The notes below the pieces were generated by a model, which did not search any database, was not told the DNA's origin, and worked only from the letters and a program-made list of their open reading frames with translations. A program made the translations under genes and the position numbers. From Geosiphon pyriformis uo1 (taxonomy: Eukaryota > Fungi > Glomeromycota): a stretch of 64,000 bases of DNA. This document shows, piece after piece, positions 20,740 to 55,430 of the stretch (its first letter is position 1; every line of letters begins with the position of its first letter). The stretch is from positions 124,001 through 188,000 of the forward strand of contig JAAOMT010000594.1 in assembly GCA_016748015.1 (NCBI GenBank), read 5' to 3'.

Positions 20740-21582
20740 TTTTATATATGAAACGGCATCAAATCTAAATCATCTCTTCCTTACACCGACACCATTTTGG
20801 TTTGGCTCCCGTTCCAATTATTTGTAATCCCTTTGTAATATACTCTCTTTGTAATGTTAGAGTTCGTCAAGAGATCCTTCATTTGCAAATGCAGGCAAGA
20901 TGCAAATATTTTAGCTTAAATTTGAGCTACTAATCCAACCTGATAAAATAGTCTATCGTTTGTAATTTATCTTTTGAAATATGAAAAAAGCGATTTATAA
21001 TAAGCGTCTCATATTTCTTTTATCGTCCAACATTTGAATTGAAAAATAAAATCACCTGCTCACCATAGCAAATATCGGTGTTTCACCCATTAGAAATTCC
21101 GATTTTAAATAAAATTCCAGGATTGTTTTTTATTTTTTTTCCTTTGTTAAAAAAAAAAGGCTTAACTTTATAGTTAATATAAAAAATTATAGAAATTATC
21201 AACATTTTTTTTATTGCTTTAAAAAATAGCAAAAAACAAATAATATTACTATAAATAATATAATAACAAAAATTTTAAAAATACCAAAAAAATTCTAAAA
21301 AAACAAAAATTCTAAAAATATTAAAAATATTAAAAGTAACTGCAAAATAATTAAAAAATAGTTAAAATACTAAAATATCTATATTATTAAAAATAAATAA
21401 ATATATAAATAGTATTAATTAAAAAAAATTAAAAATTAAAAAAAACTATTTTTAAATTAACAATTATTTTAAAAATAAATATTATTGTTAAAACATATAA
21501 ATTTAAATTATTGTTATTACTTATTCTACTATTAACTAAATTACAGTAATAAATATTAAAAAAATAATTAAGAGATAAATAT

Positions 21583-24500
21583 TATTACTGAAAATTTTTG
21601 GGTCTTTTTTTTTGAATATTATAGATATTGTTTTTCTATTAATTTATAATTACTAAAAGTGATTGAATCTCTGATAACTGAATTTATCTTCAAATTATTT
21701 CTTATAATTTGAATTACTAAGTTTATGAATGAAATGGCCAATTCTGTACCAATTACTTATATAGTTATTTTATAGTAAAAGTTAATTTTTTTTAAGAAAT
21801 ACTTATCTAAAAGCTTATAAAAATATGTAGTTACTTTATTATAAAAGTCAACTTTTTTACAGAAATTTTGTCTATAAACTATTTTAATATATATAATAAT
21901 AAAAAAGAGAAAAACAAAAGAAATATAAACAAAAAAAAATTTTATTAAGGAAATTGTCTTTTGTTCAAACTTAAAATTACTAATAATTTACTAAAATTAA
22001 TAGCTAATTAATTTCAAAATATTAGTTAAAATTTGGGAAATTTCAAGTAAAATACTTATAAATTTTGTTGTTTTCAATATAGTTTTTAAGAAATAATTTG
22101 TATAGATACTAAAAAAGATATTTTTAGTGAAAATTATTTTAATTAAAATTGCAATTAAAATAAAATAAAAAAACTTCTTTCTCTTCTTCATCCAAAATTC
22201 CCAAAAAAGAGTCAAAAGTTTTTTCGAAAGAAGTTTTTTTACCATTCAGTATGATAAATCAAAACCATTTTTCGATTACAAGGCCACTGTTGGCTCTGTT
22301 ATTGCTGTTATGAAGAAGGCTGTCAAAGTTTCTGGTTCTGAGGATGGTTTTAAGACGGTTGTATCGAGGAAGAAGAGAAAAGGTGATGTATTGGCAGAGA
22401 GTGTTGATAATAAAGAGGTTGCTAATAAAGCTCTTGGTAGTCATTTATGGGGTTCTGAGGTGGGTGACACTACTGAATCTGAGAGTATTGACATGGAGGA
22501 GGAGTGCTTGGTTGAGGAAACCAGTGTTGACTATGATGAGAATGGTGCTTTCACAGGAGGGGATCCTAATCAAATGCCTAAAAGTTTGTGTGTAAAGACC
22601 AAGAAAGTGTTAGAGAAGCCTCTGGGTGTGATTGATTATGGTACTGTCAATGCAGAAGATGACATGTTAGACAGTTTCTTCCTTCTTCCACCCCCTTTAC
22701 CTATCAAACTGTTCATTCAAGTGTCTGTTCGCAAATCCTTTGCTTTGGATATTGATCTTGTGGCTGTTGCTGGGAAATCATCTCAGGAGAAATTGAACTT
22801 TGTCAAAAAAAATTTTTCAGATGTGAATGGTTTTGGGGGGGCCTTTACTCCCTCAAAATTTGGTGGAATCATCCGGGCATCTTTTACTTCCAAAAAAGTG
22901 ATGATGATGGCTGCTCAATTGGCAAATGATTATGGTGTTATAGTAAACACTGATCTTAAGCACCTCATCAACAATCGTATGAATTGGGCAATTGTGTTAA
23001 AAGAAATTCCTGTGGAAACTTCCATCGAGGCAGTGCGTGCAGCCATTTTTGAATTTGGGCTTATTAAGTCGATCAAAATGCAGTTGGTGGGTCTATGGCA
23101 AAAGGCAATCATTAAATTGGAGGATCAAATTCAGGCTGATCTCTTGGCAGCTAAGTGGTTCATCCTTATTGAAAAAGATGCAATGCATGTGGCCTGGGCC
23201 GATGTTGACAAACAGACATGGGATGCCAGAGATAAGTTTAGGGCTTTGCTTTACACTCTCCCTATGGACACCACCAGTCATGATCTTTGGGACTTTATTG
23301 GTTCAGTTGGTGGGAAAACATGTGTTATTGAATGCAGTTTTGTCAGTTATGTCTGAGCACGCTGTGCCACTGTGTGCTTTGATTCTAAGGGTAGCCTTAT
23401 TCAGACAATGGCAAACACTCCTGTTATAAAAGGCGTTGGTCTCCAATGGTCTCATTTAACCGCTGCACTGTGCTCAATTTGCAGAAATTTCAGTCATACT
23501 TCTCTTGCTTGTCATACTGCTAGTGTGTCCTTAAAACCTAGGAGCAAGAGAGTTCTTTTCTCAGCTCAGGATCAGCTCCATCTGGCTAAGATATATGAAA
23601 AAAAATCTGCCTCTGTTTTCTGTCCTTTGGCTTTCAGTGGAAAAACTTGGGCCTCTGTGGTTGATAAACCACTCCCGTTAGTGTCATTTAATGGTTCAGC
23701 TCAATCTGGTTCCGTATCTTATGGTAAACCTCTCCCAACTGTTAGTGGTGAATTGGAAGACCATTTGAAGAATATTGAGAGCAGTCTTGTCAGCCTTGCA
23801 GGACAAATTGGTGAGTTGGCTAAAAGGTTAGACTTATTCATGCCGGCAGTTTCCCAGTCTAGCCCTGGATGTCAGCTGCCAGTGACCCTCCTATCGCAGA
23901 ATCAAAGGGAAGATATAGTGATGGGAGTGGGTTCAAGTGATGCCACTAGTGACAAGACTGCTGCCATTCTTGGTTCAACTGTCTCACCTGAGGTTGTGAA
24001 ATTGGAAAACATGTTGGAAAGTCTCTCTGCTTCAGTTATGAGCCTATCGGCATGCTTGAATGGTTTGGCTTTGGCTGGTAGTGCTTTTCCTTTATCTTAT
24101 TTTCAATGAGTAGTCTGGTATGGAAAATTGCTATGTGTAATGTTTGTGGGTTGAACAATCCTGCGAAGCAAGATGATGTCATTCATTGGCACAGAAATAT
24201 AAACAATTTGGTTTCAATTGTTATTGAGACAAAGTTAAAAGATAGAGTTCGGCCTTAGATTGCTAATAAATTTGATGGTGTTCGGGTCTTCATTTCTGGT
24301 TTGGATTCTGGTTACTTTGGTTCTGATGTGACAATCATTATGAACAACACTCTGGTGAAACATGTATATAAAGTTGTTGAGGTTCCTGGACGACTTTTGT
24401 CTGTCAAGTTGCTCTTTAGAAATAAGCTCTCGGTGTCAATTCTGGGTTTGTATGTGGGTGCTTCAGTGTCTGCGCACTTCTCACAAGTGGATGAGATAAA

Positions 24501-27500
24501 CTCTTTGATTGCTAAAGCTGTTAATAAGTCATCTTTTGTGATATTGGGCAGTGATTTCAATGAAGATGGCTCTCACAGGTGTGCTAGTTTCAGGAAATGT
24601 TTTGATTTGGGTTTGGTCAATACCTTGGGAGGAAGTTCGTTTGGGAGGAATGTGACTTGGACCAATTCTCAAGAGGTGGCCAAAGTTATTGATTACATGT
24701 TCGTGTTATCGAGCTTGGTTAATGCAATTTTAGATTGAAGTGTAGCTGGAGTTGATGAATATTTTGATACTGATCATAGGGCTGTTGCTGTTTCCATGGG
24801 CCTGAGTGGTCTTTTGGACATTAATTTGATGTCCTTTCGCAAGCAGGCGAATAAGGATTGATGGAAGTTCAATTTTAAGAATGCTACGGCTGCCAAATGG
24901 GCTGCATTCAAGGAATCTTCTGCTGCCACCACAGTAATGTTTAAGTGTAAGTTTGATGCTGTTCTATTGTTTCTAGATCTGGATGCTATGTGGGACATCG
25001 TTCACAAAATTGTGTGCTTATTAGCAAATGATATTTTCAAAAAAAAATGGTTCAAGGGTTATGATAATGTGTTTACTAAGGAATTTTCTAAGTTTCACAA
25101 GCTAGAACTTTTGGTGTCAAAACTAGTTAAAGCATCATGTTTGGTTTCTTCTGAAGAATTTGTTGCACTACTGAGTACGTGGAATTTGTTGAATGCTACA
25201 AATGCTTCTGTGGTGGAGTCTCTTTTTCTTTCAAGTCACGTTTTGAGATCATAAGATCTGTCTTGTTCAGAGTCAGAAAGTTGTATTATTCCTCTAAATT
25301 GTCCAAGTCAAAGCGTGCTGAAGAATCTCGTATCAAATCAGCAGTTAGTAAGAGGATGGAAAGTTTTGAAATGGATAAGGGTTATACAATTAAGAATGTG
25401 CTAGAGTGCCCCTTTCACAAGGTGGTAATGGATCATTTGGTTGTTGATGATGAACTGGTTTTGGATCCTAGTTTGGTTAAATCTAAGGTGGATGTTATCA
25501 TGGAAGGCTGGACCAGAAAATGCGAGTTGGTTGCTGATGTCTCTGCTGATGGGTGTCGCCAGTACCAACCCTTGGAGTATGTATTTGATGAGGCATTTTT
25601 GAGAATAATGGACCTTATTAGTTCTGTTGAGTTGCTTGGTATTGTGTCAGACTTGCCTAATGATAAAGCTGCTGGTTTGTCTGGTATTTCAAACAAGCTT
25701 TGAAAGCATTGTGACGAATCAGTTCTGAATATGTTGTTGGTGCTCTTGAACTCTTGTTTGCTCCATGAGTCAGTTCCTGGCCCTTGGAAGAAAGCTTGGA
25801 TGTCTATAATCCCCAAATCTTATGAGTGGAAGGGAGTTCTTATGAACACCCAACCCATTGCTTTGATTAAAACTGCTTGTAAGATCCTTTCAAAGATCTT
25901 CTCAGACAGGATTTCTTTGGCATGTAGTACTCACAATGTTCTCCGTAAGGACAATTTTTTTGTTTTGAAGGGCACAACAACACAGTCTCTTATCTTTGCT
26001 GTCGGCTCTGTGGTTGAGAATGCTTTGGAAAAAAACTGTGAGCTTTGGCTGGTATTGCAGAACATGGAGAAGGCCTATGATTCTGTTGGCTGGGAGCATT
26101 TGAAGAGGAGTCTAATTAGGATTAAGATGTGTGGCAGGTTCATTTGATTTTTTGGTAGCATTCACAATAACTGAGTCAACCGAGTAATGACTGACTTTGG
26201 CTTAACTAATGATTATCAAGTCCATAATAGTCTTGATCAAGGGGAAGTGTTCTTACCTTTTCTCTGGCATATATTTTATGATTCTCTTTTGTGTGAAGTC
26301 AAAAGGCAAGAAGAATTTTGTGGATATAGGTTGAATTCTTATTTCATTGCTAAGACTGGCCGTGTTGAACCTCAAGCTGGTTTTTCTTCTTTCTTTGCAG
26401 CTGGTGCTTTTGTGAATGATACAATTTGGGTTGGCAGCAGTCAGACTGCAACACAACACATTCTCAATGTTGCTAGTGAATTTTTTAGAATTAATGATAT
26501 TTCAATTAACAATGACAAAATGGTGGCAATTCCCATTAACTGTAGGGTTGTGAGCCCCTTTCTGACAATCAGTGGTTCACCAATTTTTATTGTTAAGAAA
26601 GAGGAACCTCACCAGTATTTGGGCATCTTTCTGTCTATAGATGGTTTGTTAAAACCCAGTTTGGCCAAGGCGTATTCGGATGTTCAGTTTTTTACCAATC
26701 TCATCCTGAAAAAAGCCATCTCTGATAAGCAGTTCTTGTATTTGGTTTCAGTGGTTCTGCACCCCATTGTCAGTTATAGAACGCAGTTTAGTTTTGTTCC
26801 ACTTAGTGTTTGCTGTAAATGGGATGCTCTGATTTGTAAAGGCTTCAAATCCAAGGTGGATCTTCCTTTGGACTTTCCCAATGATGCTCTTCATCATCCA
26901 TCCCTTTACAGCTTAAAGACTTTTAAGCAGATTCAGACTGAGAGTAAGTTAACATCCATAGTGTGTTTTGCCAATGCTGTTGGAATCCTGGGTTGGTTGT
27001 TTTTCCATAGGTTTCATGACTTACAGACTTTAAGCTGGCATCCTGTACACCTTTTGGTCTCTCCGGTTCATTTAAAATTAAATTCCTCAAACAATTTTCT
27101 GGTGGGTGTGGTTCATATTTTTGCCAACTGCAGCTTATCCTTTAGTAGTCCTGGCCCCAGTGCATTCTGATTCTCTCATGAAACTCCTATGTCTTTGGTT
27201 CTTGGGGAGGTGAAATTTTCTAGGTGTTTCTCCTCACTTCGGCGGTATGGAATTGCTTTTATAGAACAATTGTGTCAATGCAATGGTGGTGTTTTTGACT
27301 GGAAAACTTTCAAGTGTTGGAAAAGGCTGGATTCACGTGGCCCCATTCCTGATTGGTTTGGTGTTTCTGTTGGTTATCTTGGTGGTGTGAGTTCATTTTT
27401 TTCTGTTCATGGCTGTTCGGTAAGCATTTCTTCTGTTCTTAGTGTCTTGGAATCCACTGATTTTGATTTGGTTTGTAATCGTTTATTGGGATTGGGTGCT

Positions 27501-29326
27501 GATAGTCTTTTGGTCTATACCGATGGATCCTTGGCTGGTTTGGGCACTGTCAGTGTTAAATCAGGTGTGGTGGTTTTTTTTGATGATATTAATATGGGTT
27601 TAGGTGTTAAGGTCTCAGGTTTGTTGTCATCTACTTTGGCAGAATTGCAAGCTATTGCACTTGCTCTCGAGTGTGTTTCTGCAGTTAGCAAAGTTAGCTT
27701 ATTTTCAGATAGTCAGGCCACATTGGACGCTTGCAGATCGGAATTGGGTTTTGTGCATCTGGATTTTCAGAATAGTTGTTGGGTGGAGCGCTATCATATT
27801 GCTGGTCTTGTTTGTGCTAAGAGATTGGATGTCAGCTGGTGTAAGGTTAAAAGACATTCTGGTGTTGTAGGTAATGACCAGGCTGATGATCTGGCTGGCT
27901 ATGCGGCTCTTTCTGATTTTGTTCTTCCCCCCTGGCTGGATGAGCAGTTTATCCTGGCTGGTAGTAATCTGGTTTTGGGTAATTCTAGGCATTTTGTGCA
28001 TGACATTTATCGATCCATTCATCGTTCATGTTGGGGTTTCAGTTCGGGTAATAGGGTTGTCGCTGGCAAATTGCTCACAGATATCAATTGCCGCAGGTCC
28101 TCTTCTGTTTGGCATCCCAATTCACACATGGCTGTTGGCTTCACCAGTATTCAGACTGCTGGCTTGTGCATGTATTTTATGAAAGCTCTGCATCATAGGC
28201 TTCCTGTGACTGTTCGCAAACGCCTTTATGATAGGAGTTACCCTAGTGTGGTTTGCTTGTTTTGTGGAAGTGTGGAGGTCTCGGACCATGTTTTTTCTTG
28301 TGATTCTGACTTTGCTAATCATAATCGGCTGTTTGGTGATTTTGCAGTTAAATAGGAGGGCATTTCTGGCCTTCATGGCCCTTCTTTTCACATGCTGCGA
28401 ACTCTTTCTTTATGTATTTTTGACACCTTAGTCTGTGTTGCTCTATGCAAAGGCTTTGTTTTTAATGATTGGTTTTTTGAGGCGGATTCTGTTTTTGGTG
28501 ACCTGAAACTTGCTGGTGCAAAAATTGTGGACTTTATCTGTGATTTTTGTCTAGCTTTTAGAGATGAGGTTTGATTGGTCCATGTTAAACATTGTGCCTT
28601 TATGGAAAAGCATGGATTAATTCCTCGAAACGGTTCTGTGCCAGTTTCTATTTCTGGTCTGTCTTCCCTGTATTCAGTTGGAGTTGTCAGATTGTTGGGT
28701 ATTGATAATGCATTGGGCATTAGGTTTGGTTTGTGCAAATTTAGTTTGTTTGTTTCAGGCACTTTAGATGTGGTTTCTGTTTATATAGGTGCATAGTGTT
28801 GTTCTGATTGGCCTGAGTGGCTAGTCACGTGTAGAAAGTGCATGATTTATGCCTAATTTAGATCAATTTTTTGATGTATAGTTTTAGGTTGTGTTTGGAC
28901 TTCACTTAATAAACGTATATAAAAAAAAATTGCAATTCTCTGATAAAATACATTTTTTCAAAGAAAAAAGCTCTTTTTTTATACAATTTGTTGTAATACT
29001 AGTTTTTAAACTTGCACTTTTTTTTTTGCTATTATTTTGACAAATTAAAAATACATTTTAATAAATTATAAATTGTTTTTATAAACTATTAACTATTTTA
29101 GTAAACTATTAAATTATTTTATGAAATTCTACAAATTTTGACAAATTTTTAAATGTTATAAAGTTTAGGGTATTATATAATCTGATTATTATATTTGTGT
29201 ATTATACAAATTAGGTGATTAATTAAATAATAAGTAATAATTGAAATAATAATAATATGTTAATTAAAAATACAAAATTATAAGAGTAATTTTATGTTAA
29301 TTATTGATTAAATTCTATTAGTAACA
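21583..29326. repeat. Probable solo LTR 1 (21583-22156 + 28938-29326), split by LINE C
   Basis: Both halves align with LTR 34921-35888 (gaatctc...aatttatcttcaaattat; aacttgcactttt; taagagtaattttatg). Ends are tattactg...tagtaaca; TSD ambiguous (tat/tat). Confidence 0.75.
22174..28929 (+). mobile_element. LINE C: full-length inactivated non-LTR retrotransposon (ORF1 22310-24109; ORF2 24106-28796)
   Basis: APE, RT (KAYDSVGW, FVNDT), RNase H (YTDGS, AELQAI, SDSQ), CLFC..H...C, poly(A); 12-bp TSD AAAATTGCAATT at 22145-22156 / 28926-28937. Confidence 0.95.
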
Positions 29327-32300
29327 TATTAAAATTAAGTCTTATTAAAGTCCAAATACTATCTATAATATCTAAATAGTAATTCAGTATTATTAAAATA
29401 ATTTGGTCTAAAAATTGTTAAAATTTTAGTTTTGTAAATTTGTTAATATATTGAATCTTTATTGGTTAAAATATTAGATTTTGTAAAACGTTTTTACAAA
29501 TATTAAATAAGTTATAAAGTTTAAAAGCTGCTTTAAGTTTGTATTGTATATTTGTTGGTTCAGTTGTTATTTAAAATTTGTGATGTATTTTTTTTTGTAT
29601 AGCTTTAGAAATAAAATTGGCTGCTTTAAGTTCTAATTTCTATTAATATAATGTTTTTTTAATTTGAAAATATTGATAAATAGGAGTATATTTACTGTTT
29701 TTATTAAAACACAGTTGAAGTTTTTGTTATATTGTAACATTTAAAGAAATGTTTATAAGAATAAACAATAAGTTTTTTTTTAAAGCTTGTTTCAAAAGTT
29801 TTGGTAAATAAATTCCAAAAAAACTTCTTGTTTTTTTTCTATAAGAATAGTAATTCTAAAAATTATTTATTATTAAAATTGTAGTTTTTTTCTAAATGTA
29901 ATTAATTTGACTTTTATTAATTGTTATAGATAAGTTAAGAAGTAACAGTTTTTTTAAATTGTAATAAGTAATAATTTAACTAAATTAATACTAACTCTAT
30001 TAAAAGACTGTTTAACTTTGATTAAATTTAAAGATTTAGTAAGAAAAATTCCTTTTTTCTTTAATAATTATTATAATATTTTACATATTGTCAAATATTT
30101 TTTACAAGTATAACTAAAAATAATGTTCAAGTGTTTTTTAAATAATACTATTTTTTCATAAATATGATAATAAAAAATTAATATATATATTATATAAAAT
30201 TGGTTTTTTTTTGATTTATTGTATTAAACTAAATAAATTGTTTGAGTTTTGGCAATTTTAATAATAAATTTTGTTGTAATATAGAAAATATTGTTTTGCT
30301 TAGTGTTATAATTGGTGTTTTTTAACTAAAAACCAATTTTTTGACATGATAAGAGTCTTTAAATAGTTTTAATATTGTTTTAATTTTCAGAATATATTTT
30401 TTATTAATTGTTGTTATTGAGTTAGTAAGTTGTTGGTATTAATTTTAATCTTATCTTATTTTTAAAAAACTATCTACATTGATATGTAATTTTTTTGGTT
30501 TGTAGTAAACAATATATTTATAGTTAATTAAAAAATTAGTTTATTAAAATTGTTTGATACTAAGTTTTGAATTCTTTTTATTAAGTCATTTGAAGCCAAT
30601 ATTGTTAATAATAATATCAAAAGTTTTTTTTCTTATAGATACTGTTAAAAGTATTTAAGAGTCCAAATAATAACTATTGTTTTCAATTTTGTGAAACCAT
30701 ATTTGAATTTTGTTGGGTTAAGTATTCTATTAGTATAAATAATTATTTGCTTATTATTATTATTATTTAATTGTAATAAAATAATATTAAAGACTATATA
30801 TAAAGTATTTATGACTAATTAAAACTGTTTATTAAAGTTTAGATAGATAAAAATTAGAACTGTTGTTAACTTTTTCTTAAAGATATTAAAAAAATTTTGT
30901 TGTGCTAAAGTTTATTAATATTTTATATTTTTATTGATTAAATAGTTAAGAAACTTTGCAATTTCACAATATTTTTTAATAAACTTTTTATAGTATAAGA
31001 CTAATTTATTAAATTTTCTCAATTCAATAATGTTTTAAAAAACTTTAAAGTTTTGTATAATATTGATCTTTTCTGAATTTGGCTTGATTTTATCTTTGTT
31101 GACTATATAATTTAAGAAAACCAAACTTATTTTTTCAAAGTAATATTTTGCAATATTTAATTTTAATCCTATTTTTTATAATTGTTAAAAAATTTCTTGT
31201 AAATAAATAAAATAAGCTTTAAAAGTTAGAAAGTAAACATTAATGTTGTTGAGATAAACAATTACTAATTATTATAGTAATATTTTATATACAATATTTA
31301 TAAAATGTTAAAATATTGTTAATATATTATAAAATTTAAAAAACATAATATTAAACTTATAATTTTTTTTGAATAGTAAAGACTGTTTTTAGGCAGTTTT
31401 TTAGATTTATTTTAACTTATTAGTATTTGTTTTTTAAGTCTAAAGTTAAAAAAAACTTGGCTTTTCTTAGAACATCTAATATATTGTTAATTTTTAATAA
31501 AGAATAAGTATTTTTAATTATAATACTATTCAATTGACAATAATTAACACAAAATATAATTTTGACATTTTTTTTGACCAAAACAACTAGTAAAGTTCAA
31601 AAGCTTTTTAATAATTAGATAAGACTATTTTTGAGTATTTGTTAACTTTTTTTCTTAATAAATTTGCAAGTAAAACTTAATATGCTTATTGGGATTTTAA
31701 TAAAGCATTTTTAGTATAAATCTGGTGCTAAATAATATCAGTTTTTTTTAGATTATTATTGTTTTTAGCAAATATATTAGCATATTCTGTAATAAGCTTT
31801 TTAAGTAGTCTTTGCTGTTAAGATTTCAAAAAATTCATGTTAATTTGCAATAATTTTTTCTGTGATGTAATAATTTTCAATATTGGTAGTAATATTAAAA
31901 TTGAAAAATAAAATATGTCTTACAATCTTAGTAAAATTAAAGACAGTTTGTAAGATTTTTTTTAGAAAATATTACTATGTATAATTCTGATTTCTAGTTT
32001 ATTTAATTAAATAATGAAGTAATTGTAAAAATTATAAAATATAACTTAAAACTTTTTTGTTTTCTTGGATATATAAATGTTTAATATAGAAATATTATGT
32101 TTTCTGTAAATTTGTTTATTAAATTTGAAAATTTGTTGTATAATAATAGATTTGGAACAAATATAGATTTTTTGATGTTTTTTAAAAGATTAGATAGTAA
32201 TTTGTTAAGAAAGTTAAAAAATCTGGTAAGATTTTTTTGTATATTAAAAACTATGTTTACTAGAATCATAAATTATCTAATTAAACCAAAATCTTGAATT

Positions 32301-35892: not shown

Positions 35893-36096
35893 ATAGACAA
35901 ACTTTTTTAATTAATTTATTCTTGAATTCAATAATAAATTGGTCTAAGATTTAAGCATTAGAATAATAATTATTGGTTTTCAATTGACAAATTTGTTAAA
36001 AAAATTTGTTGAATTTTCCAAAATAAATTATGACAGATTTAGAAAATTTTTGTTTAATGTTTTAGAATTAATTTTGAAAAGTAATAAAAATATTAT
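35893..36096 (-). mobile_element. Gag fragment of the same gypsy relic
   Basis: Reads ITFQN*F*NIKQ...NA*ILDQFIIEFKNKLIKKVCL and joins 34916 once LTR 2 is removed. Confidence 0.7.
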
Positions 36097-36114
36097 ATAA
36101 TAAAATTAAAACAA

Positions 36115-43445: not shown

Positions 43446-46400
43446 TTTTTTATTAAAGTTTAATGAGTGAAATCCAAATGCCACTTAGTGCTATATATCA
43501 TACAAATGATCTAAACTAAGCGTGAATTATGTCTTCACTACACGTGACCAGACACTTAGACTAATCAGAACAATACTATGCACTTATATGAACAGAAGTC
43601 ATGTTACCAACATCTGCATAAAACAAACAATGCTCATAATACCCAAACCTAATCACCCCAGCCAAAAGCCACATAGAAAAACCAGAAACAGTGACAGGAA
43701 TAGAACCATCATGTGGAATCAGCTTATTCTTCTCCATAATGGTCTGGTGTTTCACATGGACCAGCCAGATATCATCACAAAATACAAGACAAAACTCACA
43801 TACAAAATTCACAATATTAACCACTGTCACCTTAGGATTCTTGTAAACAGACACAGACTCATGATACCAATTGCCAAAAACAAAGCCCTTACACAGAGCC
43901 GTACTAACAGTCACATCTGAAATGCAAGTTGACAACAACTCCAATATGCACAAAGAAGAGTAAAACAGACCAGAATACACCTCCTAGACAGCTGCATAAG
44001 TGTCCAACAAACTGGTGCAATTATCAGCATCAGAAGAGCAAGAAAAGACATGGTCTGAGATTTCAACCTTACTACAGAATAAACAAACTATACTGGGATA
44101 GTCTCTATTATACAGATGCTTTCACACAGCAACAGAAAGGTGATGATGAAGGGCTTTCATAAAGTATGTACGAAAGCCAGCCATCTGAATACTAATAAAA
44201 CCAGTCACCATGTGAGAATCTAGGTGCCACACCAAAGAAGACCTCAACCAGTCAATATTAGCATGCAAACAACCAGGAACAAACCGGGAACCAGAACCAA
44301 CCTCCCAATGTGCGCAATAGATTGACTTGAATATGTCATGAACAAAATGCCTTGAATTACCAGAAACCGTACCAACACCAGCCTTCAAAAACCTTTTATT
44401 GACCAAGTGGGACAGGTGCCAGGCAGAAAAGGCAGCATTCTTAGCCAGCGCATTAGCACGCTCATTATCTAAAACACCCGAATGGCCCTTAATCTTAATC
44501 CAATTAACATCCAAATTTTTGCAATAAATGACATTGGCAATGTAATAATACTCAATCCAACAACAATTCCTGAAATCAGGGCCAACTGATAAAGACTCAA
44601 ACCTGCAAGCATCTATAGCTGCCTGGCTGTCTGAGAACAAGTCAACTGAATGAAAAGAAGGAACAGACTCAAGAGCTAAAGCAATGGCTTGCAACTCCAC
44701 CAAAGTAAAAAAAACCAAACCAGAAACTCCCACACCCAGACCCAAATTAATGTCTTCAAAGAAAACTACAGCACCAGCCAACATGTCAACAGTGCTCAAG
44801 TTACTCAGAGATCCATCTGTGTATACAGAGAAGTGGGCGGCACCAACATTCAACAGATCATTACAAATAACACCAAAACCAAGAGACTGACAGATGTCAG
44901 AAGAGTCACAAACACCCTTATAAGGAGAACAACCAGAAAGAGAAGCTACACCACCAAGAAAATGAACAGAGAGATCAAACCAGAAGGAGACCAGGCCATG
45001 GAAGTCCAGTTTTTTCCAATGCTTGAAAGTCTTCCAATCAAAAACAATGCCATTCCAGTCACAAAGCTGTTTTACAAAAACAATACCATAACACCTAAGG
45101 AAGAGACACATTTGAAGAAAATTGTCTCGCCTAGAACTAGAGACATAGAAGTATCACTCCGAAGACAAAAAGCACCAGCCAGAGAGCCACCCAAAGACAA
45201 ATCACACCCAGAAAAAACACAAACCACACCTGCCAAAAAGTTGTTTGAAGGGCTGACTTTAACACAAGCAGGAAACAACAAAGAGTGACAAAAATGCCAG
45301 CTAAGAACTTGCAGATCATAAGACTTATAAGAAAACAAGCGACCCAAAATACCAACTGAATTCACAAAAGCAATGACAGAAGCTGACTTGTTCTCAGCCT
45401 AAATTTGCTCAAAAGTTTTTAAATTGTACAAGGAAGGATAATAAAGTGCATCATTGGAAAAGTCCAGAGACAGCCCAGATTTGGATTTCAAGCCCTTGCA
45501 AATTAAAGCATCCCACTTATTACACATACTGAAAGGAATAAAACTGAACTGAGTTCTGTAGCTGACAATAGGAAGGAGAACTGAAAACACCAAATAAGCA
45601 AACTGTTTATCTGATATAACTTTTCTTAGAATGCGATTGACAAAAAACCAAACATCCAAATGCGTTTTAACCAAGCTGGACTTCAAAAGACATTCAGAAG
45701 ATAAAAAAATCCCCAGATAACAATGAGGTTCATCCCTTTTAGTGATGGAAATTGGCATACCACTGATAGTTAGATAAGGAGCAGTGACCTGACAGTTAAT
45801 AGAAATGACCAGTCTTGTTATTGTTTATCGAAATGTTATTTAAACAAAAGAAATCACTAGCAACATTGAGGATGTATTGTGTAGCAGCCTGGCTGCTACC
45901 AACCCAGATAGTATCATCAACAAAAGCACTAGCAGCCAGAAACAATGTCAGCCCAGCCTGAGATTCCACCCAGCCAGTCTTAGAAATGAAATGAAAAATC
46001 AACCTGTAACCACAAATGCTCTTCTGTCTCTTAACCTTATACAAAAGCAAGTCATAAAATATGCACCAGAAAAGTGGTGAAAAAACCTCCCTCTGATCCA
46101 ATCCATTATGAACATAATATCTATCAGTCAAACCAAAATCTGTCATCACTCTGTTAGTGTAACCATTATGAATGCTACCAAAAAATCTGATAAATTTGTT
46201 ACACATTTTGATTCTAACCAAACTCCTTTTGAGATGCTCCTAACCAACAGAATCATAAGCTTTGCACATATTCTGTAAAACCAGCCACAACTCTCAGTTC
46301 TTTTCCAAAGCATCTTCAACCACCGAACCAATAGCGAAAATAGGCAATTGAGTAGACATACCTTTCAAGACAAAGAAATTGTTCCCATGGAGTACATCAA

Positions 46401-49400
46401 AAGTGCTACAAGCCAGAGAGATCCAATCTGAAAGAATCTTGGAAAGGACCTTGCGAGCTGTCTCAACCAAAGCAATGGGGTGGGTATTTGTAAGAATCCC
46501 TTTCCACTCGTAAGGTTTAGGAATCATTGAGACTCAGGCTTCTCTCCAAGGTTCAGGCACTGACTCACAATTCAAACAAAAATTTAAGAGCACCAAAAGC
46601 ATATCCAAGATCGACTTGTCACAGTGTTTTCAAAGTTCATTAGTGATACCAGAAAAACCAGCTGCTTTCCTATCGGGCAAATTTGAAATAACACCAAACA
46701 TCTTATCAAAACCAATTGAATGCATTACATCAGAGAAGGCACCATCAAAAACATGATTCAAAGACTGAAATTGCCTTGCCCAATCACTAGAGATATCAGA
46801 AGCCACCACACATTTTCTAGTCCAACTCTCCATGATTCCATCCACCTTAAATTTAACTAACTCAGGCTCCAAGACCAACTCCCCACCATCCACCAAATGA
46901 TCCAACACCACTTTACAAAAAGAATGCTCCAAAACACTTCTAATGATGTAACTCTTATCCACCTCAAAACTCTCCATTCTCCTCTCAATAGCCTGTCTTA
47001 TACAAGATTCTTCAGCGTGCTTGGATTCCAATGACTTAGAAGAGCAGTAGGACTTCCTTGCTTTAGCCAGCCCAAAACGGATTGCATCAAAACTGGTGCC
47101 AGAGAGAAACAGAAATTTTATTGGCAAAGCACCCACAGAATCAAGCCTGTACCAAGTATCTAGCAATGAGGCAAAATCCCCACCAGAAACCAACCAAGAA
47201 GCCTTCACCAGTTTAGACACAAGTAGCTCCAGTTTATGAAACTGGAAAGACACCTTATTAAAAACACAATCAAAACCCTTAAACCACTTTTTCCTAAATG
47301 CTCTACCAGCCGAAAGAACCATAACCTTACGAACAATGTCCCACATTGCATCCAGATCAGAAAACTGCTTAGCTGCAACAAACTCATCCTAGAACATAAC
47401 AGCATTAGTGGCCATAACATTTCTGAATTCTGACTACTTAATCACACTGGTATTTTTGATATCATACTTTCAGTGATTTCTATTTGCCTGTTTGCACAGA
47501 GAGTTCAACTGGACATCGAGCAGACCACCCAGTCTCACAGAAACATAAACAGTCCTGTGATTGGTATCAAAATAGTCCTCAATGCCATCCACACCACAAT
47601 TCACTACCACACCAACCAAATTAGAAGAAATAAACATGTAGTTAAGTGTCTTAGTGATACCATGAAAATTGTACCAAGTAGGTGACTTCACAAAAGAACT
47701 CCCTTTCATAGAGTTAATCAAACCCAAATCAAAACATTTTTTGAAACTGGCACATTTGTGTGAACCATCTTCATTAAAATTACCACCAAGAATAACAAAA
47801 GAAGACTCATTAATGGCTCTAGCAATGAGAAAGTTGATTTCACCAGTCTAAGAAAACTGAACCACTGATGAAGCACCAGCATAGAGCCCCAAAATAGACA
47901 CTGAAAGTTTATTTTTGAAAAGCAACTTGATGGAAAGGAGCCAACCAGGCACTTTAGAGACCTTGCAGACATGTTTCGCTAAAGAAGAATTCACGACAAT
48001 TAACACCCCAGCACCCAAAAAACCAGAATCCAGACCAGAAGTAAAAACCCGAATACCATCAAATTTGTCAGCCAACCATGAGTGAACTTTTTCTTTAAGC
48101 TTTGACTCCATAAAAATAGAAACCAAATTGTTCATATCCTTGTGCCAATGAATGACATCATTTTGTTTTGCAGGATTGTTTAATCCACAAACATTACACA
48201 TAGCAATTTTCTATACCAGACTACTCATTGAAAAAGAGGTAGAGGAGGAGCACCACCTGCCAAAGCCAAACCATTCAAGCACACTGATAGGCTCATGACC
48301 AAAGCAGAGAGATCTTCTAACATGTTTTCCAATTTCACAACCTTAGGTAAGGCAGTTGAGCCTGAAACAGCAGCAGTCTTGTCACTAGTGGCATCACTTG
48401 AACCCACTTCCATCACTATATTCTCCTCTTGATTCTGCAATAGGAGAGTCACCAGCAGCTGACATCCAGGGCTAGGCTGGGAAACTGCTGGCACAAATGA
48501 TTCCAACCTCTTAGCCAACTCACCAATTTGTTCTATGAGGCTGACAAGACTGCTTTTAATGCTAACCAAATGTTTTTCCAAATTATTCACTACTGGAGGG
48601 AGAGGTTTACCATTTCTAATGGAACCAAGCTGAGAGTCATATCCATGAAACGTGCTTGAAGGAGGAAAGCCTACTACTGAAGCCCAAGTCTTACCACCAA
48701 AAGCCAGAGGACGGAAAATGGGAGCAGACTTTCTCTCATAAATCTTTGCCAATCTAAACCAATCCTGAGCCGAGAGAGGAGCTCTCTTGCTCTTAGAACC
48801 CAAAGATACATCATCTGACTTACAAACCAAAGACGTATAACCAAGAGAATTGCAAGAGGAACACAAGGCAGTAGATAAATGCGACCAGCAGAGACATATA
48901 TCTTTTATAACAGGCATGTTAACCATAGCCCACAATAGGACATCCTCAGACTCAAAACCCACAGAAGTGCAGTGTGCATGAGTGTAGTCAACAGGATTGC
49001 AATCAATGACGCAAGTTTTTCCACCCACCAAATCCAGAAAATCCCACAGATCATAAGTGTTTGTTCCTATGGGAAGAGTGTAAAGCAATGCCCTGAATCT
49101 GTCTCTAGAATCCCATGTTTGTTTATCCACGTCAGCTTTGGCTACACAAACTGCATTTTTTCTAATAAGAATAGATCATTTGTTTGCCAAGAGATCAGCC
49201 TGATTTTGATCTTCCATCTCGACAATCGCTTTCTGTCACAATCCCACCAACTGCATTCTGATCTTCTTAATAATCCCAAATTCGGATACAGCTGCATGCA
49301 CAGCTTTCATTAATGTTCTCACAAAAATCTCTTTTAACACAATATTCCAATTTGTATGAATGTTGCCAGGTCATTTGAGATTGGTGTTTACCACAACACC

Positions 49401-50160
49401 ACAATTATTTGCCAACTTTCCAGTAGCCATCATTGCCTTTTCCGAAGTAAAAGTCACATGAATAATTCCACCAAATTTTGAGGAAGTAGAAGCCCCCCCA
49501 AAATCATTCACACTTGAAAAAATTTTTCTGATAAAACTCAATTTTTCCTGAGAAGATTTCCCAGCAACGACCACAAGATCAATATCTAATGCAAAGGATT
49601 TGCGAACAGGCACTTGAACGAACAACTTGACAAGTAGAGGAGGCAGAAGAAGAAAGGAATTGTCCAACACATCATTATCTGTATTGACAGTACCATAATC
49701 AATCACACCCAGAGGCTTTTCTAATACCTTTTTGGTTTTTACACGCAAACCCTTTGGCGTTTGATTAGGATCCCCTTCTGTGAAAGCACCACTTTCACCA
49801 TAGTCAACACTGGTTTTCTCAACCAAGTACTTCTTCTCCATGTCAATACTCTCTGACTCAGTAGTGTCATCTGTCTCAGAACCTCATGAACAAGCACCAG
49901 GAGCTTCAGCAGCAACCCCTCTATTATTAATACCTTCTGCCAATACCCCTCCCTTCCTCTTCTTCTTCGACACAACCACCTTAAAACCACTCTCAGAACC
50001 AGAGACTTTAGTAGTCTTTTTCATAACAGCAATAACAGAGCCAACAGTGGCCTTGTAATTGAAGAACAGTTTTGATTTATCATACTGAATGATAAAAAAC
50101 TTCTTTTGAGAAAACTTTTGACTCTTTTTTTGGGAATTTTGAATGAAAAAGAGAAAGAAG
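43446..50160 (-). mobile_element. LINE E: full-length inactivated non-LTR retrotransposon (ORF1 about 50024-48225; ORF2 48228-43576), tail-to-tail with D
   Basis: 5' end CTTCTTTCTCT as in A and C; FVDDT RT motif, YTDGS RNase H, poly(A); TSD core TTAATAATTTT at 43435-43445 / 50167-50177. Confidence 0.95.
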
Positions 50161-52211
50161 TTTTTGTTAATAATTTTAAAGCATTTTTTTTCTTTATTTA
50201 ATAGTTTATTTTTTTTATATATATATTTAAATTAATTTTAGTATTTTTTACTTTCTTTAAAAATTTTAAAGTTTTTAATAATAAGCCAATTATTCTTATT
50301 ATTACTATTACAATTATTTTACAAATAATTAAAAGACCAAAAAATTCGAAAAACAATAATAGTTATTTTTGTTTACTATTATTATATTAAATATTTTTGT
50401 AATTTTAGATAAAATTTTAAAATAAAATTTTTGTAATAATAATTAGTTTTTTTTAATATAAACAATAACAATAATAATATATCTTTTATAATAAATTAAA
50501 TTTAATTATTATTATTTTTTTATTACCAGTTTTATGAATAAAGCCCAATATTAATTATTAGCTATTTTACTAAAAGTAGTATTTTTTAAAAATAAAACAA
50601 AACATGTTTTTAAATACTATTTTTACTTAATTAATTTATTAAATTATTTGATTTTAAGAATTGAACTGATTAAATAAAAACTGAATTAATATTTTTTTAT
50701 TTTTTGGTACAATTTTTAATAATGCTTAGAAAATAATTACTAATTATCAAAAATTTTTGAATAGATAGTTTTTATTTTAATGTTTAATTATATATTTAAA
50801 ATTAAATTGGCTTTTGTTAATTTTTTGTTTTATTTATTGTCTGGTTTTTTTAAATTCAAATTTATTTTAAATAATAATATTAAGTTGTTTTATGTAAATT
50901 TTGTTTTTAAAGTTTTTTTAATTATTATTATTAAAATTTTTATTGATAATTTTGTGTTTTTAATTATATTTAAAATTATAAAGTTTTTTGTAGTAACTTT
51001 TGTTTTTTTCTATTGTATTTTATAATGTTTTTTTTGGTATATTTTTTAATAACATTAAAAATATCTTAAATATTTTTGGTAATATTAATTAAAATTTGTA
51101 AGTTTATAATAATATGTTGTTATTTAATTTAAGAAAATTTTTTTTGTTGTTGTTTTTACTTGTTAATCTGTATTAATAAACAAACAATATTAAAAAAATT
51201 TTTATTTAATTAAAAAAAAATTTACTTTAAAAAACAGTTTTAAAACCAAATTAATCAATCTTTTTTTGGTTGTATAGTTTTTAAAATCAGTAATTTAATT
51301 TTTTAAGTTAGTAATTATATATGTTTTATTTTAAATTTTTATTGTTAATACTTTTTATTGTAATTTTTAAGTCTTTGAATATTATAAATCTTATTATTTT
51401 GAAAATTGGTATTTTATATAAGTATTTTATTTAGTAAAAACTTTTAAATATTATTATTATTACAATTTCAAGATTTAAATTATTTGGTTTTAAATTATAA
51501 AATGTTTTTATTTTTATTTTCTAAGTTTTTTATTAAATTTATTGGTGATTTCAAGTTTTTTAATTTGTTTTTTGTTGTTACAAAGTTTTATGTTAAAGCT
51601 TTTAACTTTTTAATTTTTATTATTATTATTTTTGGCTGTTTTTGTTATTAATTTTGTAATTAATTTTAAATTGAATTTTTTGGAATTTTAAATCTTTAAT
51701 TTGGCTGTATTAATTAAGTTTATTATTAAATTAAATGGTTTTTTGGTATTTTGGTTATTTTTTTTTGGCTAAAAATATATATAAAAATCTTAAAATAAAA
51801 AAAAATTAGTTATTAAGAATTTTACTATTTTTTTGGCTTGTTTATTTAAAAACTTTGCTAATTTAAAGTTAAAATAAATTTATTAACATAAATAATAATA
51901 ATTTAAATAATATTAAAATGTTTTTTTAAATAACTTAATTATTGAATATTTAATAGTACTATAATAAATATATAATTTTAATATTAAATATAGTATTAAT
52001 AAAACCAGATTGTTTTTAAATAAGTTTGTTTTTAATAATTAAAATTTAAATAGCTTTATAATAAACTTAATAAGTTAAGTTTATTTTTAGTTTTTTTTTA
52101 TTTTTACTTAATTTATGTTTTAATTAATTTAAATAGTTAATTATATATAAAAAATACATGATTTATATTTAATTTAAGATTTTTAATAAGTTATATTTTA
52201 TTAAATAGTAA
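50161..52211 (-). mobile_element. AT-decayed relic, probably the upstream gag region of the same gypsy element
   Basis: Continuous with 43445 via the LINE E TSD; extreme AT content, no clear motif. Confidence 0.5.
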
Positions 52212-53671
52212 TTTTTTTTTTAACAAGTAAGATCTAAACATTACTTAGTACAATACATCATATAAGTAATCTAAACTAGATATAAATCATGCTTTTTCTA
52301 GATATAACCAGTCATTCGGACCAATTAGAACAATACTATGCATCTACACAAACTAAAACTAAGTTTCCAATGCCAAAAAAAAACAGGCAAAACTTGTGCA
52401 AACCAAAACTAACACTAAATGTCTTAGTAATGCTAAGCAATCTAACCACACCAGCAAAAAGCACTAAAAACAGCCCAAAAACAGAAACAAAAGCTGAACT
52501 ATCATGAGAAATCAGCCTATTTTTTTTCATAAAGACATAATATTTAGCACAAACCAATCAAACCTCCTCCCTAAAAGCAAAACAAAATTCATGCACAAAG
52601 TTTACAATTTTCAGATCTGCAACTTTAGAATTACTGAAAACAGAAACAGTCTCTTGACACTAATCATTAAAAACAAAGCTCTTATAGAAAGCCATCTACA
52701 TCACAACATCAGAAACACAGAAGAGCATTGGCTAAAATACACATAAAAACAATGAAAAAGACTAGATAGTACTCTTTAAGCATCTGCATAGACATTTAAC
52801 AAATAATAGTGAACAGAATTGTTAAATATGCAAGAAAAAACATGGTCTGAGACCTCAATATTATCACAATACAAACATATTATACTGGGGTAGCACTTGT
52901 CATACAGGTACTTTTGAACAACAATAGGTAGCCAATAATGCAAAGCTTTTATAAAATAAGTATAAACATTAGCAGTAAATCTGCCAATAAAATCAGCAGT
53001 CATATGCAAATCTGAATGTTACACCAAAAATAAACTCAGCCAATCAATATCCAAAAGCAAACAATCAGTTAGAATCTTAGAACCAAAATCAACTTTTCAG
53101 AATATATAATAAACAAACTGAAAAATTTCATAAACAAAATATCTAGAATTACTAAAAACAACACGACTATCTACTTTAATATAATGTTCTTTTAACTGAA
53201 AGAAAAAAATTCCACTTAAAAAAAAATACAGTATTAGCAAATGTATCAACACATTTATTATCCAAAATACCCAAATAATCCCTCACTTTGTGCTAGCTAA
53301 CATTCAAATTTTTGTCATAAACAATGTTCATGATATGCCACTGTTCAATTTAATACTGATTCTGAAAATCTGGATATACCAAATTCAACTTAAATTTGTA
53401 TACAACCAAAACTGTTTAACTGTCCATAAATAATTAAACTGATCTGTAAGAAGGAATACACTCGAAAGCCAAAGCAATAGCTTGTAACTCTGCTAATATA
53501 GAAGATATCAAACCAGAAACTTTAACACCCAAATCCAAATTTATGTCCTTAAAAAAAACTGCTGTATCAGTCCTTATGTGAGTTGTTTTCAAGTCTTTTA
53601 AAGACTTATCCATATAGACAAACAGACTACCAATATTAATATCTAATAAATAGCCATAAACTAATTCAAAT
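52212..53671 (-). mobile_element. LINE F: 5'-truncated copy (RNase H, CCHC, 3' UTR, poly(A))
   Basis: ALHYWLP...CLYCDNIEVSDHVFSC and the family 3' UTR; TSD ATAGTAATT at 52205-52213 / 53672-53680. Confidence 0.88.
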
Positions 53672-53680
53672 ATAGTAATT

Positions 53681-55430
53681 AAATTATATTTTTTAAAACA
53701 TAATAAAAAAAATAACTAAAAAATAATTGAATATTTTAAAATATATTGTATTATTTTAAATAATTAAATAATCAAAGAATTAAAACTATTTTTATTTTTA
53801 TATTAATAATTATTTTAAGATATATAAATTTAAGTTATTGTTATTATTACTTAATTTATTATTAAATAATTATATTAATAAATATTAAAAACATAATTAT
53901 TATGCTTACTAATAACTTTTAATTATAGTTATTAATAAAATTAATTTTTTTCTATTTTATATTTTTTTGTTGTAAAATATTATTAAATTAATTAATTAAA
54001 AAATATAACATTAAAAATATAATATTATAAAACTAAAATTATTAAAATTAAATAATTTAGTATAAAAATAAAAAACACTAAAGTAAATCTGCTAAAAAAC
54101 AAAAAAAATTAGAAACTAAGTATTAAAAACTATTAAATTATTAAATTTTTGTTTTTTATACAAAAAATTTTATTAAAATCTTAAAATTTAGAAAATTTTT
54201 AAATTAATTAATTATAAAAACAACAAATTATAAAAATTATTTAAAAAAATTATTTATAATATTTAATGTTTTTTGTAAGATATAATTTAAAAAACAAAAT
54301 ATTATTAATAATAACAATTAAAATAACAAAACTAAAATATATTAAAAATTAACTACTTATTAAAAAAACAAAAACATTAAAATAAATTAATATTAAAAAA
54401 ACAAAACATTAAGTATTAAATATCATTAAATTTTCTATTTTTTATTTTTTATACAAAAAATTTTCGTTAAAAACTTTTAAATTTACCAAAATTTTTAGTT
54501 TATATTAAAAATTACAACATTAAATTATTAAATTTAACATATTAAATCTATTTATAACATTATAATATTAATTAAACTAGACTTAAAAATAAATATAAAT
54601 TTGATAATTTTTTAAAATTTTGAAAAAATAAAAGTTTTTAAAACTATTTACTAATAAAAGCATTTTTTTAATTATTCATACTTTTTTTATATAGTTTTTT
54701 TTAATAATTAATAAATTAATATTTAAAGCATAATAACTTTTAATTTCTTTTTAATAAATATAAAAACAAACCAATTTAACTTATATATAATAAAAATTTA
54801 TTTTAATAGTAAAATTATTATTTTATCAATATTTATTTTTAAAGTATTTGTTTAAAAGTTCAAAATTATTATTAATAAAACAATGATTAACTTCTTTTAA
54901 AAAATTTTTTGGTTATATTATAGTTATTAATTTTTACATAAAAAATTAATATTTTGCAAAATATTAGAAAATAAAAAAAAACAAAAACTTTTTTTAAAGA
55001 ATTGTAAATATAAAAAAAAATGAAAATTTTAAATTTTAATTATTATTATTATTTTTTTTATATAATATTAACAACATATTATTATCTATTTAATAATTTG
55101 TCAAATATTTAATTTGATATATATATTAAATTTTACTATTAATAAATATTATTGTTGTAATTTTTAAATTAATGTTTACTTTGCCATAATTATATTTATC
55201 TAATTGTTAAAAATATTTAAAAATTGCTTATTTTTTGTTATATTTATTTATTAATATATTATATCATTCTTTTAATTTCTTTTTTTATTACTTTTCAATA
55301 TTTTTTTTTAATATTCCTTTTTATTATTTTTCCAATATTTTTTTTTTCAATATATATTTTTTTTTTTTTTACTATCTTTTTTATTTCTTATTCTTTTTCT
55401 TTATTATCTTTCAATATTTTTCCATTTAGA
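53681..55430. other. Extremely AT-rich relic with a degenerate internal duplication (about 54118-54200 vs 54411-54496)
   Basis: aagtattaaa...tttttatacaaaaaatttt...ttaaaa recurs about 290 bp apart. Confidence 0.45.

What the first reader, a model, noticed from the sequence alone, without database searches (positions are those of the whole stretch)
21140..55430. Repeat-targeted, cumulative C>T hypermutation: candidate RIP-like defence that is not CpA-focused
Seen: every transposon is ruined by transitions while genes a few hundred bp away keep abundant CpG and intact frames. Homologous copies show opposite-strand decay of one CpG (CCA at 22265 in C vs CTG at 50069-50067 in E). Non-CpG hits are also frequent (Trp TGG>TAG at about 24257, TGG>TGA at 25701). 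Load follows nesting order: the host gypsy relic is nearly GC-free (YLDD>YLNN at about 31245), while the LINEs and solo LTR 2 inserted into it retain much more GC. Surviving C in the relics is mostly followed by A or T (aCaa, aCt). Established: ascomycete RIP prefers CpA, and passive 5mCpG deamination should stall once CpGs are exhausted. Inference: a process acting first on CpG and then on nearly all C, repeatedly over time, in an early-diverging fungus.
Basis: partly seen in the sequence, partly recalled or inferred. Interest (0 to 1): 0.78.

Follow-up and report, generated by a model that had tools for sequence, protein, structure and literature searches.

The report
All-context C-to-T erosion of Geosiphon transposons
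Dead transposons in this stretch, likely from the mycorrhizal-type fungus Geosiphon, have lost cytosines to C-to-T changes on both strands, fastest at CpG but also at other cytosines, while neighbouring genes and introns keep theirs; this is likely the slow footprint of transposon-directed DNA methylation rather than classical RIP.

Summary
All 359 named homologues are Geosiphon pyriformis, so the window likely comes from that glomeromycete. About 86% of ancestral CpGs are gone from the LINEs. Across 239 LINE and 120 gypsy protein copies, non-CpG C>T/G>A replacements run at 7-14% per site, against about 0.4% per transversion route and about 1% for T>C. CpA and CpC are hit equally (14% and 13% in window DNA), with a mild 5'-T preference. 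Load follows nesting: LINE C 9-11%, E 13-14%, D 17-20%, F 30%, gypsy relic 56%. Introns (28% GC) and fourfold sites (33% GC) keep their CpG. Classical RIP fits poorly: no CpA focus, no per-copy strand bias, one broad load distribution. Best reading (0.55): continuous deamination of 5mC laid in CG and non-CG contexts on silenced repeats. An enzymatic, context-relaxed mutator is the main rival (0.22). There was no methylome and no age-matched unique DNA to test. This scan noted similar decay before, in Jimgerdemannia; I found no published account for Glomeromycotina.

The parts
21140..21580 (.). AT-rich stretch (10% GC, no CpG, TpC-depleted); origin not assigned
21583..29326 (.). solo LTR1 (952 bp without the insert, 15.5% GC, 0 CpG), split by LINE C; 134 of 247 C/G sites of LTR2 are T/A here
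   Evidence: contigs of run X1 bridge the empty site
22145..28929 (+). LINE C (ORF1, endonuclease-RT-RNase H ORF2, poly-A, 12-bp target duplication); C>T load 9-11% at conserved codon positions
29330..34915 (-). Ty3/gypsy gag-pol relic, 17% GC, CpG o/e 0.05; 45 of 81 conserved C/G sites in the gag/protease part are T/A
   Evidence: Pfam PF17919 E 1e-12; tblastn to gypsy proteins
34921..35888 (.). solo LTR2 inserted in the relic's gag, target duplication ACAT, 26% GC, 8 CpG
36090..43000 (+). LINE D (5' end approximate); C>T load 17-20%
43010..43440 (.). AT-rich stretch (20% GC, no CpG) between D and E; origin not assigned
43443..50188 (-). LINE E, 71% identical to C; C>T load 13-14%
50190..52200 (+). 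heavily eroded relic (11% GC) with a gypsy gag-like match at about 50830-51340
   Evidence: tblastn E 1e-10
52212..53730 (-). LINE F, 3' fragment; C>T load 30%
53730..55430 (.). AT-rich stretch (9% GC); origin not assigned
11200..21130 (.). left gene block (control): 38% GC, CpG o/e 0.90, open frames
55440..64000 (.). right gene block (control; ERCC4/EME1-domain gene, biotin-carboxylase gene, others): 35% GC, CpG o/e 0.82
1..10000 (-). second transposon cluster outside the finding (gypsy gag 1-760, LINE A 2300-9100, LINE fragments) with the same signature

Best explanation
Inserted retrotransposons here have lost C:G pairs to T:A on both strands and in every 3' context, most in the oldest nested copies, likely because they are kept methylated at CG and at non-CG cytosines and the 5mC likely deaminates steadily. 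Shown: the spectrum (CpG about 7-10 times faster than other C; other C 20-30 times each transversion route), flat 3' context with a mild 5'-T preference, strand balance within copies, load rising with nesting age, sharp borders, and intact CpG in genes and introns. Inferred: DNMT1/DNMT5-type enzymes keep CG methylated and a DIM-2-type enzyme adds lower-level non-CG methylation in silenced chromatin; T:G mismatches become fixed a few at a time over many divisions; because the chromatin mark and not sequence identity guides it, erosion goes on after CpG is gone and heads for about 9-14% GC, where the oldest relics sit. Permanent inactivation of the elements would be the result, whether selected for or a by-product.
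For: LINE family, 239 proteins, 950 conserved columns: C>Y 173/2527, H>Y 406/3143 (CpA); G>D/E 576/7181, P>S 315/2336 (CpC); R>K 132/1280 (CpT where the codon is AGR); A>G/T>C routes 653/48751; transversion routes 366/86768 and 445/95348. Gypsy family, 120 proteins, the same picture. LTR1 against LTR2: CpA 50/89, CpC 17/33, CpT 48/96, CpG 11/16 changed. Run X1 contigs on 21500-29400: 1063 places C>T or G>A, 751 T>C or A>G, 321 transversions, with only 146 of 2887 C/G in a CpG. No per-copy strand bias (chi2 92.9 against a permuted 121 +/- 14, 147 copies); simulations with up to 50 strand-specific rounds per copy gave far larger values. Load is one broad distribution, 6-27%, and rises weakly with private non-deamination changes (rho 0.29, p 3e-4). 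AM fungi are reported to keep DNMT1, DNMT5, DIM-2 and RID and R. irregularis has 32.5-49.5% of C methylated (PMC8298701, passages); Phycomyces transposons carry CG and CHH methylation (PMC11258239, passages).
Against: No methylome or methyltransferase inventory for this organism was available. In Neurospora mitotic lines, methylated H3K9me3 domains show no excess of C>T (PMC10234303, passages). In Zymoseptoria the Dim2-dependent mutations fall at CpA although CG is the most methylated context, so methylation level and mutation can be uncoupled (PMC8016269, section 11). With all conserved columns, load did not correlate with other changes (rho 0.007); the correlation appears only in columns filtered for rare other changes. 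The strand statistic is lower than the permutation null, so that null is not perfectly calibrated. Protein counts are not independent (shared descent), exclude stop codons and miss the most eroded copies.
Confidence: 0.55

Rival explanations
1. An active, context-relaxed mutator: a DIM-2- or RID-type enzyme (or an unknown deaminase) converts C to T in repeats in many very small doses, mitotically as in Zymoseptoria or as very weak RIP rounds.
For: Non-CpG C>T is 20-30 times each transversion route, an extreme spectrum. A reproducible 5'-T preference (81/384 against 45/452 after G, p 2e-5; same rank) could be enzyme preference. RID and DIM-2 are reported in AM fungi (PMC8298701, passages). Dim2 raises the mitotic rate more than tenfold in Z. 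tritici (PMC8016269, section 11). None of the 216 copies scored is near pristine (lowest load 6%).
Against: No strand coordination, clustering or heavily hit outliers; CpG is the fastest class, as passive 5mC decay predicts; 3' context is flat, unlike the known enzymatic cases (CpA, TpCpG).
Confidence: 0.22
2. One reading: CG-only methylation decay plus a strongly AT-biased mutation spectrum acting genome-wide; introns, UTRs and synonymous sites stay at about 30% GC through selection or GC-biased conversion.
For: Short AT-rich islands between genes (14480-14880, 9% GC; 10000-11150, 11%) show relic-like composition and could not be tied firmly to any transposon. No age-matched unique neutral DNA could be tested.
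Against: 24 introns average 27.6% GC with TpC 1.03 and CpG 0.86, fourfold sites 32.8%, non-genic unique DNA near genes 32.8%; at equilibrium that means a GC-loss to GC-gain ratio of 2.0-2.6, against about 6-10 in the repeats (my arithmetic). Neurospora mitotic Ts/Tv is about 1.1, with A:T>G:C commoner than C:G>T:A (PMC10234303, passages).
Confidence: 0.13
3. CG methylation decay plus poor uracil repair in silent chromatin: unmethylated cytosines deaminate to U and are not excised in repeats.
For: Would give flat 3' context, strand symmetry and steady accumulation, all as seen.
Against: No fungal precedent turned up in my searches; a global loss of uracil repair would also erode introns, which are intact.
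Confidence: 0.08
4. Classical RIP (RID-dependent, premeiotic, episodic, CpA-directed).
For: C>T/G>A dominance confined to repeats with sharp borders; AT-rich end state.
Against: CpA equals CpC; CpA is over-, not under-represented in LINEs (1.34-1.38) and about neutral in relics; no strand bias; unimodal load.
Confidence: 0.02

Closest known systems
5mC-driven C>T decay of methylated transposons (CpG decay in Agaricomycotina, PMC3318451 passages; multi-context decay in plant transposons, recalled)
   Same: CpG fastest, both strands, cumulative, confined to silenced repeats
   Different: non-CpG C is also lost heavily, in CHG (52/334) and CHH (285/1603) alike, driving relics to 9-17% GC; PMC3318451 saw no elevation outside CpG in Agaricomycotina
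Dim2-dependent mitotic C>T mutator of Zymoseptoria tritici (PMC8016269, abstract and section 11)
   Same: C>T outside CpG in methylated repeats, no sexual cycle needed
   Different: there more than 98% of C>T are at CpA and CG is spared; here CpG is fastest and CpA, CpC, CpT are about equal
Repeat-induced point mutation (RIP) of Neurospora and other Pezizomycotina
   Same: repeat-confined C:G>T:A, AT-rich relics, sharp borders
   Different: no CpA preference, no strand coordination, no burst-like load; RID dependence and premeiotic timing untested
TpCpG hypermutation of Pucciniomycotina (PMC3318451, passages)
   Same: non-ascomycete, 5'-T influence
   Different: here the 5'-T effect is mild (about 1.6-2 times) and applies to non-CpG C; surviving CpG in the LINEs shows no TCG deficit
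Transposon C>T erosion noted by this scan in Jimgerdemannia (Endogonales); unchecked AI notes
   Same: CpG first, then non-CpG, genes untouched, Mucoromycota in the wide sense
   Different: those notes report CG, CA and CC with CpT spared; here CpT is hit as well

Membership tests
Classical RIP | C:G>T:A transitions confined to repeats | tested here: met
Classical RIP | CpA preference | tested here: not met
   CpA 67/483 against CpC 66/499; LTR pair CpA 0.56, CpC 0.52, CpT 0.50, CpG 0.69
Classical RIP | episodic, strand-polarised mutation within a copy (feature recalled) | tested here: not met
   no strand overdispersion or adjacent same-strand excess (0.608 against null 0.601); very many weak rounds are not excluded
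Classical RIP | RID dependence and premeiotic timing | not testable with these tools
   no genome held; RID reported for the AMF clade (PMC8298701, passage), not checked for this species
Classical RIP | needs long, highly similar duplicates | tested here: inconclusive
   the relic has lost 56% of conserved C, but copies may converge as they erode and copy number is high
5mC deamination decay of silenced transposons | CpG is the fastest-lost context, on both strands | tested here: met
5mC deamination decay of silenced transposons | load accumulates with residence time | tested here: met
   nesting order; rho 0.29 with private other changes, no correlation in unfiltered columns
5mC deamination decay of silenced transposons | mutated contexts are the methylated contexts | not testable with these tools
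   no methylome for this organism was available
Zymoseptoria-type Dim2 mitotic mutator | C>T almost only at CpA, CG spared | tested here: not met
Pucciniomycotina TpCpG hypermutation | TpCpG lost faster than VpCpG | tested here: not met
   by composition only: C/(C+T) before G in LINEs relative to genes is 0.30 after T, 0.28 after A, 0.25 after G, 0.19 after C
APOBEC-type editing of retroelement cDNA, or UV damage | one-strand G>A bias; dipyrimidine restriction with tandem CC>TT | tested here: not met
   sense-strand G>A 13.2% against C>T 12.5%; double changes 1.2% and 1.6%, as expected from single rates; purine-C-purine sites (C>Y) are hit at 6.9%

The most novel reading that the evidence does not exclude
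Glomeromycotina run an undescribed, enzyme-driven genome defence that deaminates cytosine in any 3' context with a 5'-T preference, on both strands and in small mitotic doses, and that has disabled the LINE and gypsy families of Geosiphon; the usual CpA-based RIP screens cannot see it.
Probability: 0.22. Interest if true: 0.8.

Novelty: new variant of a known kind. Interest (0 to 1): 0.5.

Why it matters
RIP-like mutagenesis is held to be essentially an ascomycete trait with CpA preference (PMC12543289, abstract and section 9; Geosiphon had 0 hits in the 12 of 19 supplementary files searched, while Gigaspora and Rhizophagus are listed), and RIP signatures were reported absent in Gigaspora and Mucoromycotina (10.1101/2021.03.30.436303, passage). 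Here a glomeromycete erases transposon cytosines in all contexts strongly enough to ruin every copy examined, and CpA-based indices miss it. It predicts substantial non-CG methylation, or a new mutator, in a lineage whose methylomes I saw analysed only by CpG calls or bulk 5mC; that is directly testable. It also means that divergence-based dating of these transposons is inflated by one mutation class, and that many annotated 'hypothetical proteins' in this genome are eroded transposons.

Tried and rejected
No whole genome is held for the window, so no DNA-level genome-wide consensus was possible; predicted proteins served instead. A scan of metagenome contigs with a LINE alignment found no relative. 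The run search listed 3 runs, 1 holding the stretch, and no RNA holder. No read data were obtained for the gene blocks, so introns were picked by eye from GT-AG ends (24 of 24 candidates snapped) and polymorphism in unique DNA is unmeasured. A four-copy DNA alignment gave the same trend but is noisy because the copies are 57-67% alike; its T>C values (6-11% for the four full copies) are inflated by shared CpG loss. Purine/pyrimidine-only alignment of the AT-rich islands against the window's transposons did not clearly beat shuffles and is uninformative. The idea that LTR1 and LTR2 are the two LTRs of the relic was rejected: LTR2 has its own duplication and gag-like matches on both sides, and no polypurine tract precedes LTR1. 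UV-type and APOBEC-type origins were rejected. A CHG against CHH difference was not found. Both long-protein searches returned only Geosiphon in the listed 120, so no comparison with other AM fungi was possible. Literature searches for RIP or hypermutation in Geosiphon/Glomeromycota showed no account of this pattern; the Geosiphon genome paper (seen only as a reference) and Clutterbuck's 2017 paper on CG deficiency in lower fungi (recalled) were not read and may bear on novelty.
Full report
Setting. No whole genome is held. The LINE and gypsy proteins of the window retrieved 120 listed hits in each of three searches; 359 of 359 named hits are Geosiphon pyriformis and one is the window's own protein. 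The window therefore likely comes from this glomeromycete or a very near relative (inference). Sliding composition shows CpG-rich gene blocks at about 11200-21130 and 55440-64000 and CpG-poor transposon clusters at 1-10000 and 21140-55430.

Anatomy. Self-comparison, ORFs and Pfam give LINEs C (22145-28929, +), D (about 36090-43000, +), E (50188-43443, -), a 3' fragment F (about 53730-52212, -) and A (9100-2300, -). A Ty3/gypsy relic lies on the minus strand at 29330-34915 (RNase H PF17919, E 1e-12; gag/protease matches). Two related solo LTRs are present: LTR1 (21583-29326), split by LINE C with a 12-bp duplication (empty-site contigs), and LTR2 (34921-35888) with an ACAT duplication inside the relic's gag. 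Three AT-rich stretches inside the finding could not be assigned.

Observation check. The quoted codons are all there. CpG loss is strong: in C against E, CG/CG 5, CG/TG or CA 62, TG/CA 96, which implies about 14% survival per copy if the copies are independent. YLNN can arise from CpG decay alone. The relic's surviving C's have CpA, CpC and CpT at 1.09, 1.03 and 1.10 of expectation, so their A/T neighbours reflect base composition.

Non-CpG loss. To polarise changes without a genome I used columns conserved across many predicted proteins of other copies. In 950 columns of 239 LINE proteins, replacements that need C>T or G>A in a codon-fixed CpA context occur at 6.9% (C>Y, 173/2527) and 12.9% (H>Y, 406/3143), in CpC at 8.0% (G>D/E, 576/7181) and 13.5% (P>S, 315/2336), and R>K at 10.3% (132/1280). 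A>G/T>C routes are at 1.3% (653/48751, median column 0) and transversion routes at 0.42% and 0.47% (a first pass on 120 proteins gave 0.73% for A>G/T>C). Some Lys, Asn and Tyr columns are invariant over 92-97 copies. The gypsy family, 120 proteins, repeats this. In the window's own DNA, codon-fixed CpA is 67/483 and CpC 66/499; after a 5' T the rate is 81/384, after A 62/471, after C 54/450, after G 45/452 (p 2e-5). The LTR pair gives 134 of 247 C/G changed to T/A, 18 transversions, and flat context. Contigs of run X1 laid on 21500-29400 show 1063 places of C>T/G>A, 751 of the reverse kind and 321 transversions; only 40 of 2135 rows were displayed, and of the 32 displayed C>T changes private to this copy 31 are outside CpG. 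Limits: shared descent makes cells non-independent, stop codons are invisible in proteins, and very eroded copies are not annotated.

Cumulative, not episodic. Load at conserved codon positions is 9-11% in C, 13-14% in E, 17-20% in D, 19-20% in A, 30% in F and 56% (45/81) in the relic. Across 216 copies with enough columns, of 239, it is unimodal from 6% to 27%. G>A and C>T on the sense strand are equal overall (13.2% and 12.5%) and balanced within copies: chi2 142 on 215 df, while simulations with 1 to 50 strand-specific rounds gave 5% quantiles of 248 or more; in 147 copies at stricter columns the value was 92.9 against a permutation null of 121 +/- 14. The observed value lies below even the 200-round simulation, so the null is imperfect, but there is no hint of polarity. 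Adjacent events share a strand no more than expected (0.608 against 0.601 +/- 0.006). Load correlates weakly with private non-deamination changes in filtered columns (rho 0.29) and not at all in unfiltered ones (rho 0.007), where subfamily differences dominate.

Is it restricted to repeats? Twenty-four introns picked by eye average 27.6% GC with CpG at 0.86; fourfold sites in 13 of 16 exon segments (3 dropped for ambiguous frame) are 32.8% GC; non-genic unique DNA near genes is 32.8%. The repeat spectrum predicts an equilibrium of about 9-14% GC (my arithmetic), matching the relics at 9-17%. So unique DNA near genes is not on the same path, unless selection or biased conversion holds it up. 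Against a clean conclusion: gene-flanking AT islands (14480-14880 and 10000-11150) have the relic signature and no firm transposon match (one weak hit at E 5e-5), so the target may be all unprotected non-genic DNA, and no age-matched unique sequence could be measured.

Mechanism. Shown: spectrum, context, symmetry, age order, borders. Inferred: the cause. CG-first, all-context, strand-symmetric, steady loss is what deamination of 5mC gives if non-CG cytosines are also methylated. AM fungi are reported to keep DNMT1, DNMT2, DNMT5, DIM-2 and RID, with 32.5-49.5% of C methylated in R. irregularis by LC-MS (PMC8298701, passages). Since only 14-17% of C in this window's gene blocks lie in CpG, such a level would need non-CG methylation if it carried over; this is a cross-species inference. 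DIM-2 methylates all CpN contexts (PMC13297926, passages) and Phycomyces transposons carry CG and CHH marks (PMC11258239, passages). Against: Neurospora heterochromatin shows no C>T excess in mitotic lines (PMC10234303, passages), and in Zymoseptoria the Dim2-linked mutations ignore the most methylated context (PMC8016269, abstract and section 11), so an enzymatic step cannot be excluded. I give 0.55 to passive all-context 5mC decay, 0.22 to a context-relaxed enzymatic mutator, 0.13 to genome-wide drift, 0.08 to poor uracil repair in silent chromatin and 0.02 to classical RIP.

Comparison and novelty. It works like methylation-driven transposon decay and ends like RIP (AT-rich relics), but fails the RIP tests that could be run. 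A kingdom-wide screen found RIP-like signatures only in ascomycetes (PMC12543289: abstract, passages, section 9); Geosiphon had no hit in the 12 of 19 supplementary files searched, and the 7 unsearched files may bear on this. RIP signatures were reported absent in Gigaspora and Mucoromycotina (10.1101/2021.03.30.436303, passages); a 2025 survey of AM fungal transposons has no occurrence of 'RIP' or 'deamination' (PMC11952901, passages); the Gigaspora methylation analysis I saw used CpG calls (PMC13443276, passages). PMC3318451 (passages) covers basidiomycetes; 10.1101/764753 was seen as abstract and outline only. Searches showed no description of this pattern for Glomeromycotina, but the Geosiphon genome paper and Clutterbuck 2017 (recalled) were not read. 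Earlier unchecked notes of this scan describe similar decay in Jimgerdemannia and CpG-only decay in Dimargaris. Verdict: a real, well-quantified new variant of a known kind, with the enzyme question open; interest 0.5.

Noticed in passing
window 14480-14880, 60590-60870, 10000-11150: Sharp AT-rich islands (9-11% GC in the two measured) between or upstream of genes, with relic-like TpC depletion and GpC excess; ancient relics or native promoter spacers is unresolved.
   Followed up: partly
   Followed up: partly
window 34921-35888: LTR2 keeps 8 CpGs (o/e 0.48), more than the LINEs (0.10-0.27), although it lies inside the most eroded relic; it may be the youngest insertion or partly escape methylation.
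   Followed up: partly
proteins P0002-P0360: 359 annotated 'hypothetical proteins' of Geosiphon pyriformis are eroded LINE or gypsy fragments, some fused with Argonaute/Piwi, dUTPase or LSM domains (P0139, P0133, P0273), which would inflate gene counts.
   Followed up: no
window 15326-15656: An unusually long (331 bp), 35% GC candidate intron with 9 CpGs in the HABP4/Stm1-like gene; it may host a small RNA.
   Followed up: no
window 12985-14470: 1.5 kb of 37% GC, CpG-intact sequence without an ORF of 110 aa upstream of the ribosomal L10-like gene; possibly a many-exon or non-coding gene.
   Followed up: no
window 28800-28930, 42870-43000, 43443-43570: The 3' UTR ends of LINEs C, D, E, F and A stay alike although the families are only 57-71% identical, suggesting a conserved recognition signal.
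   Followed up: no
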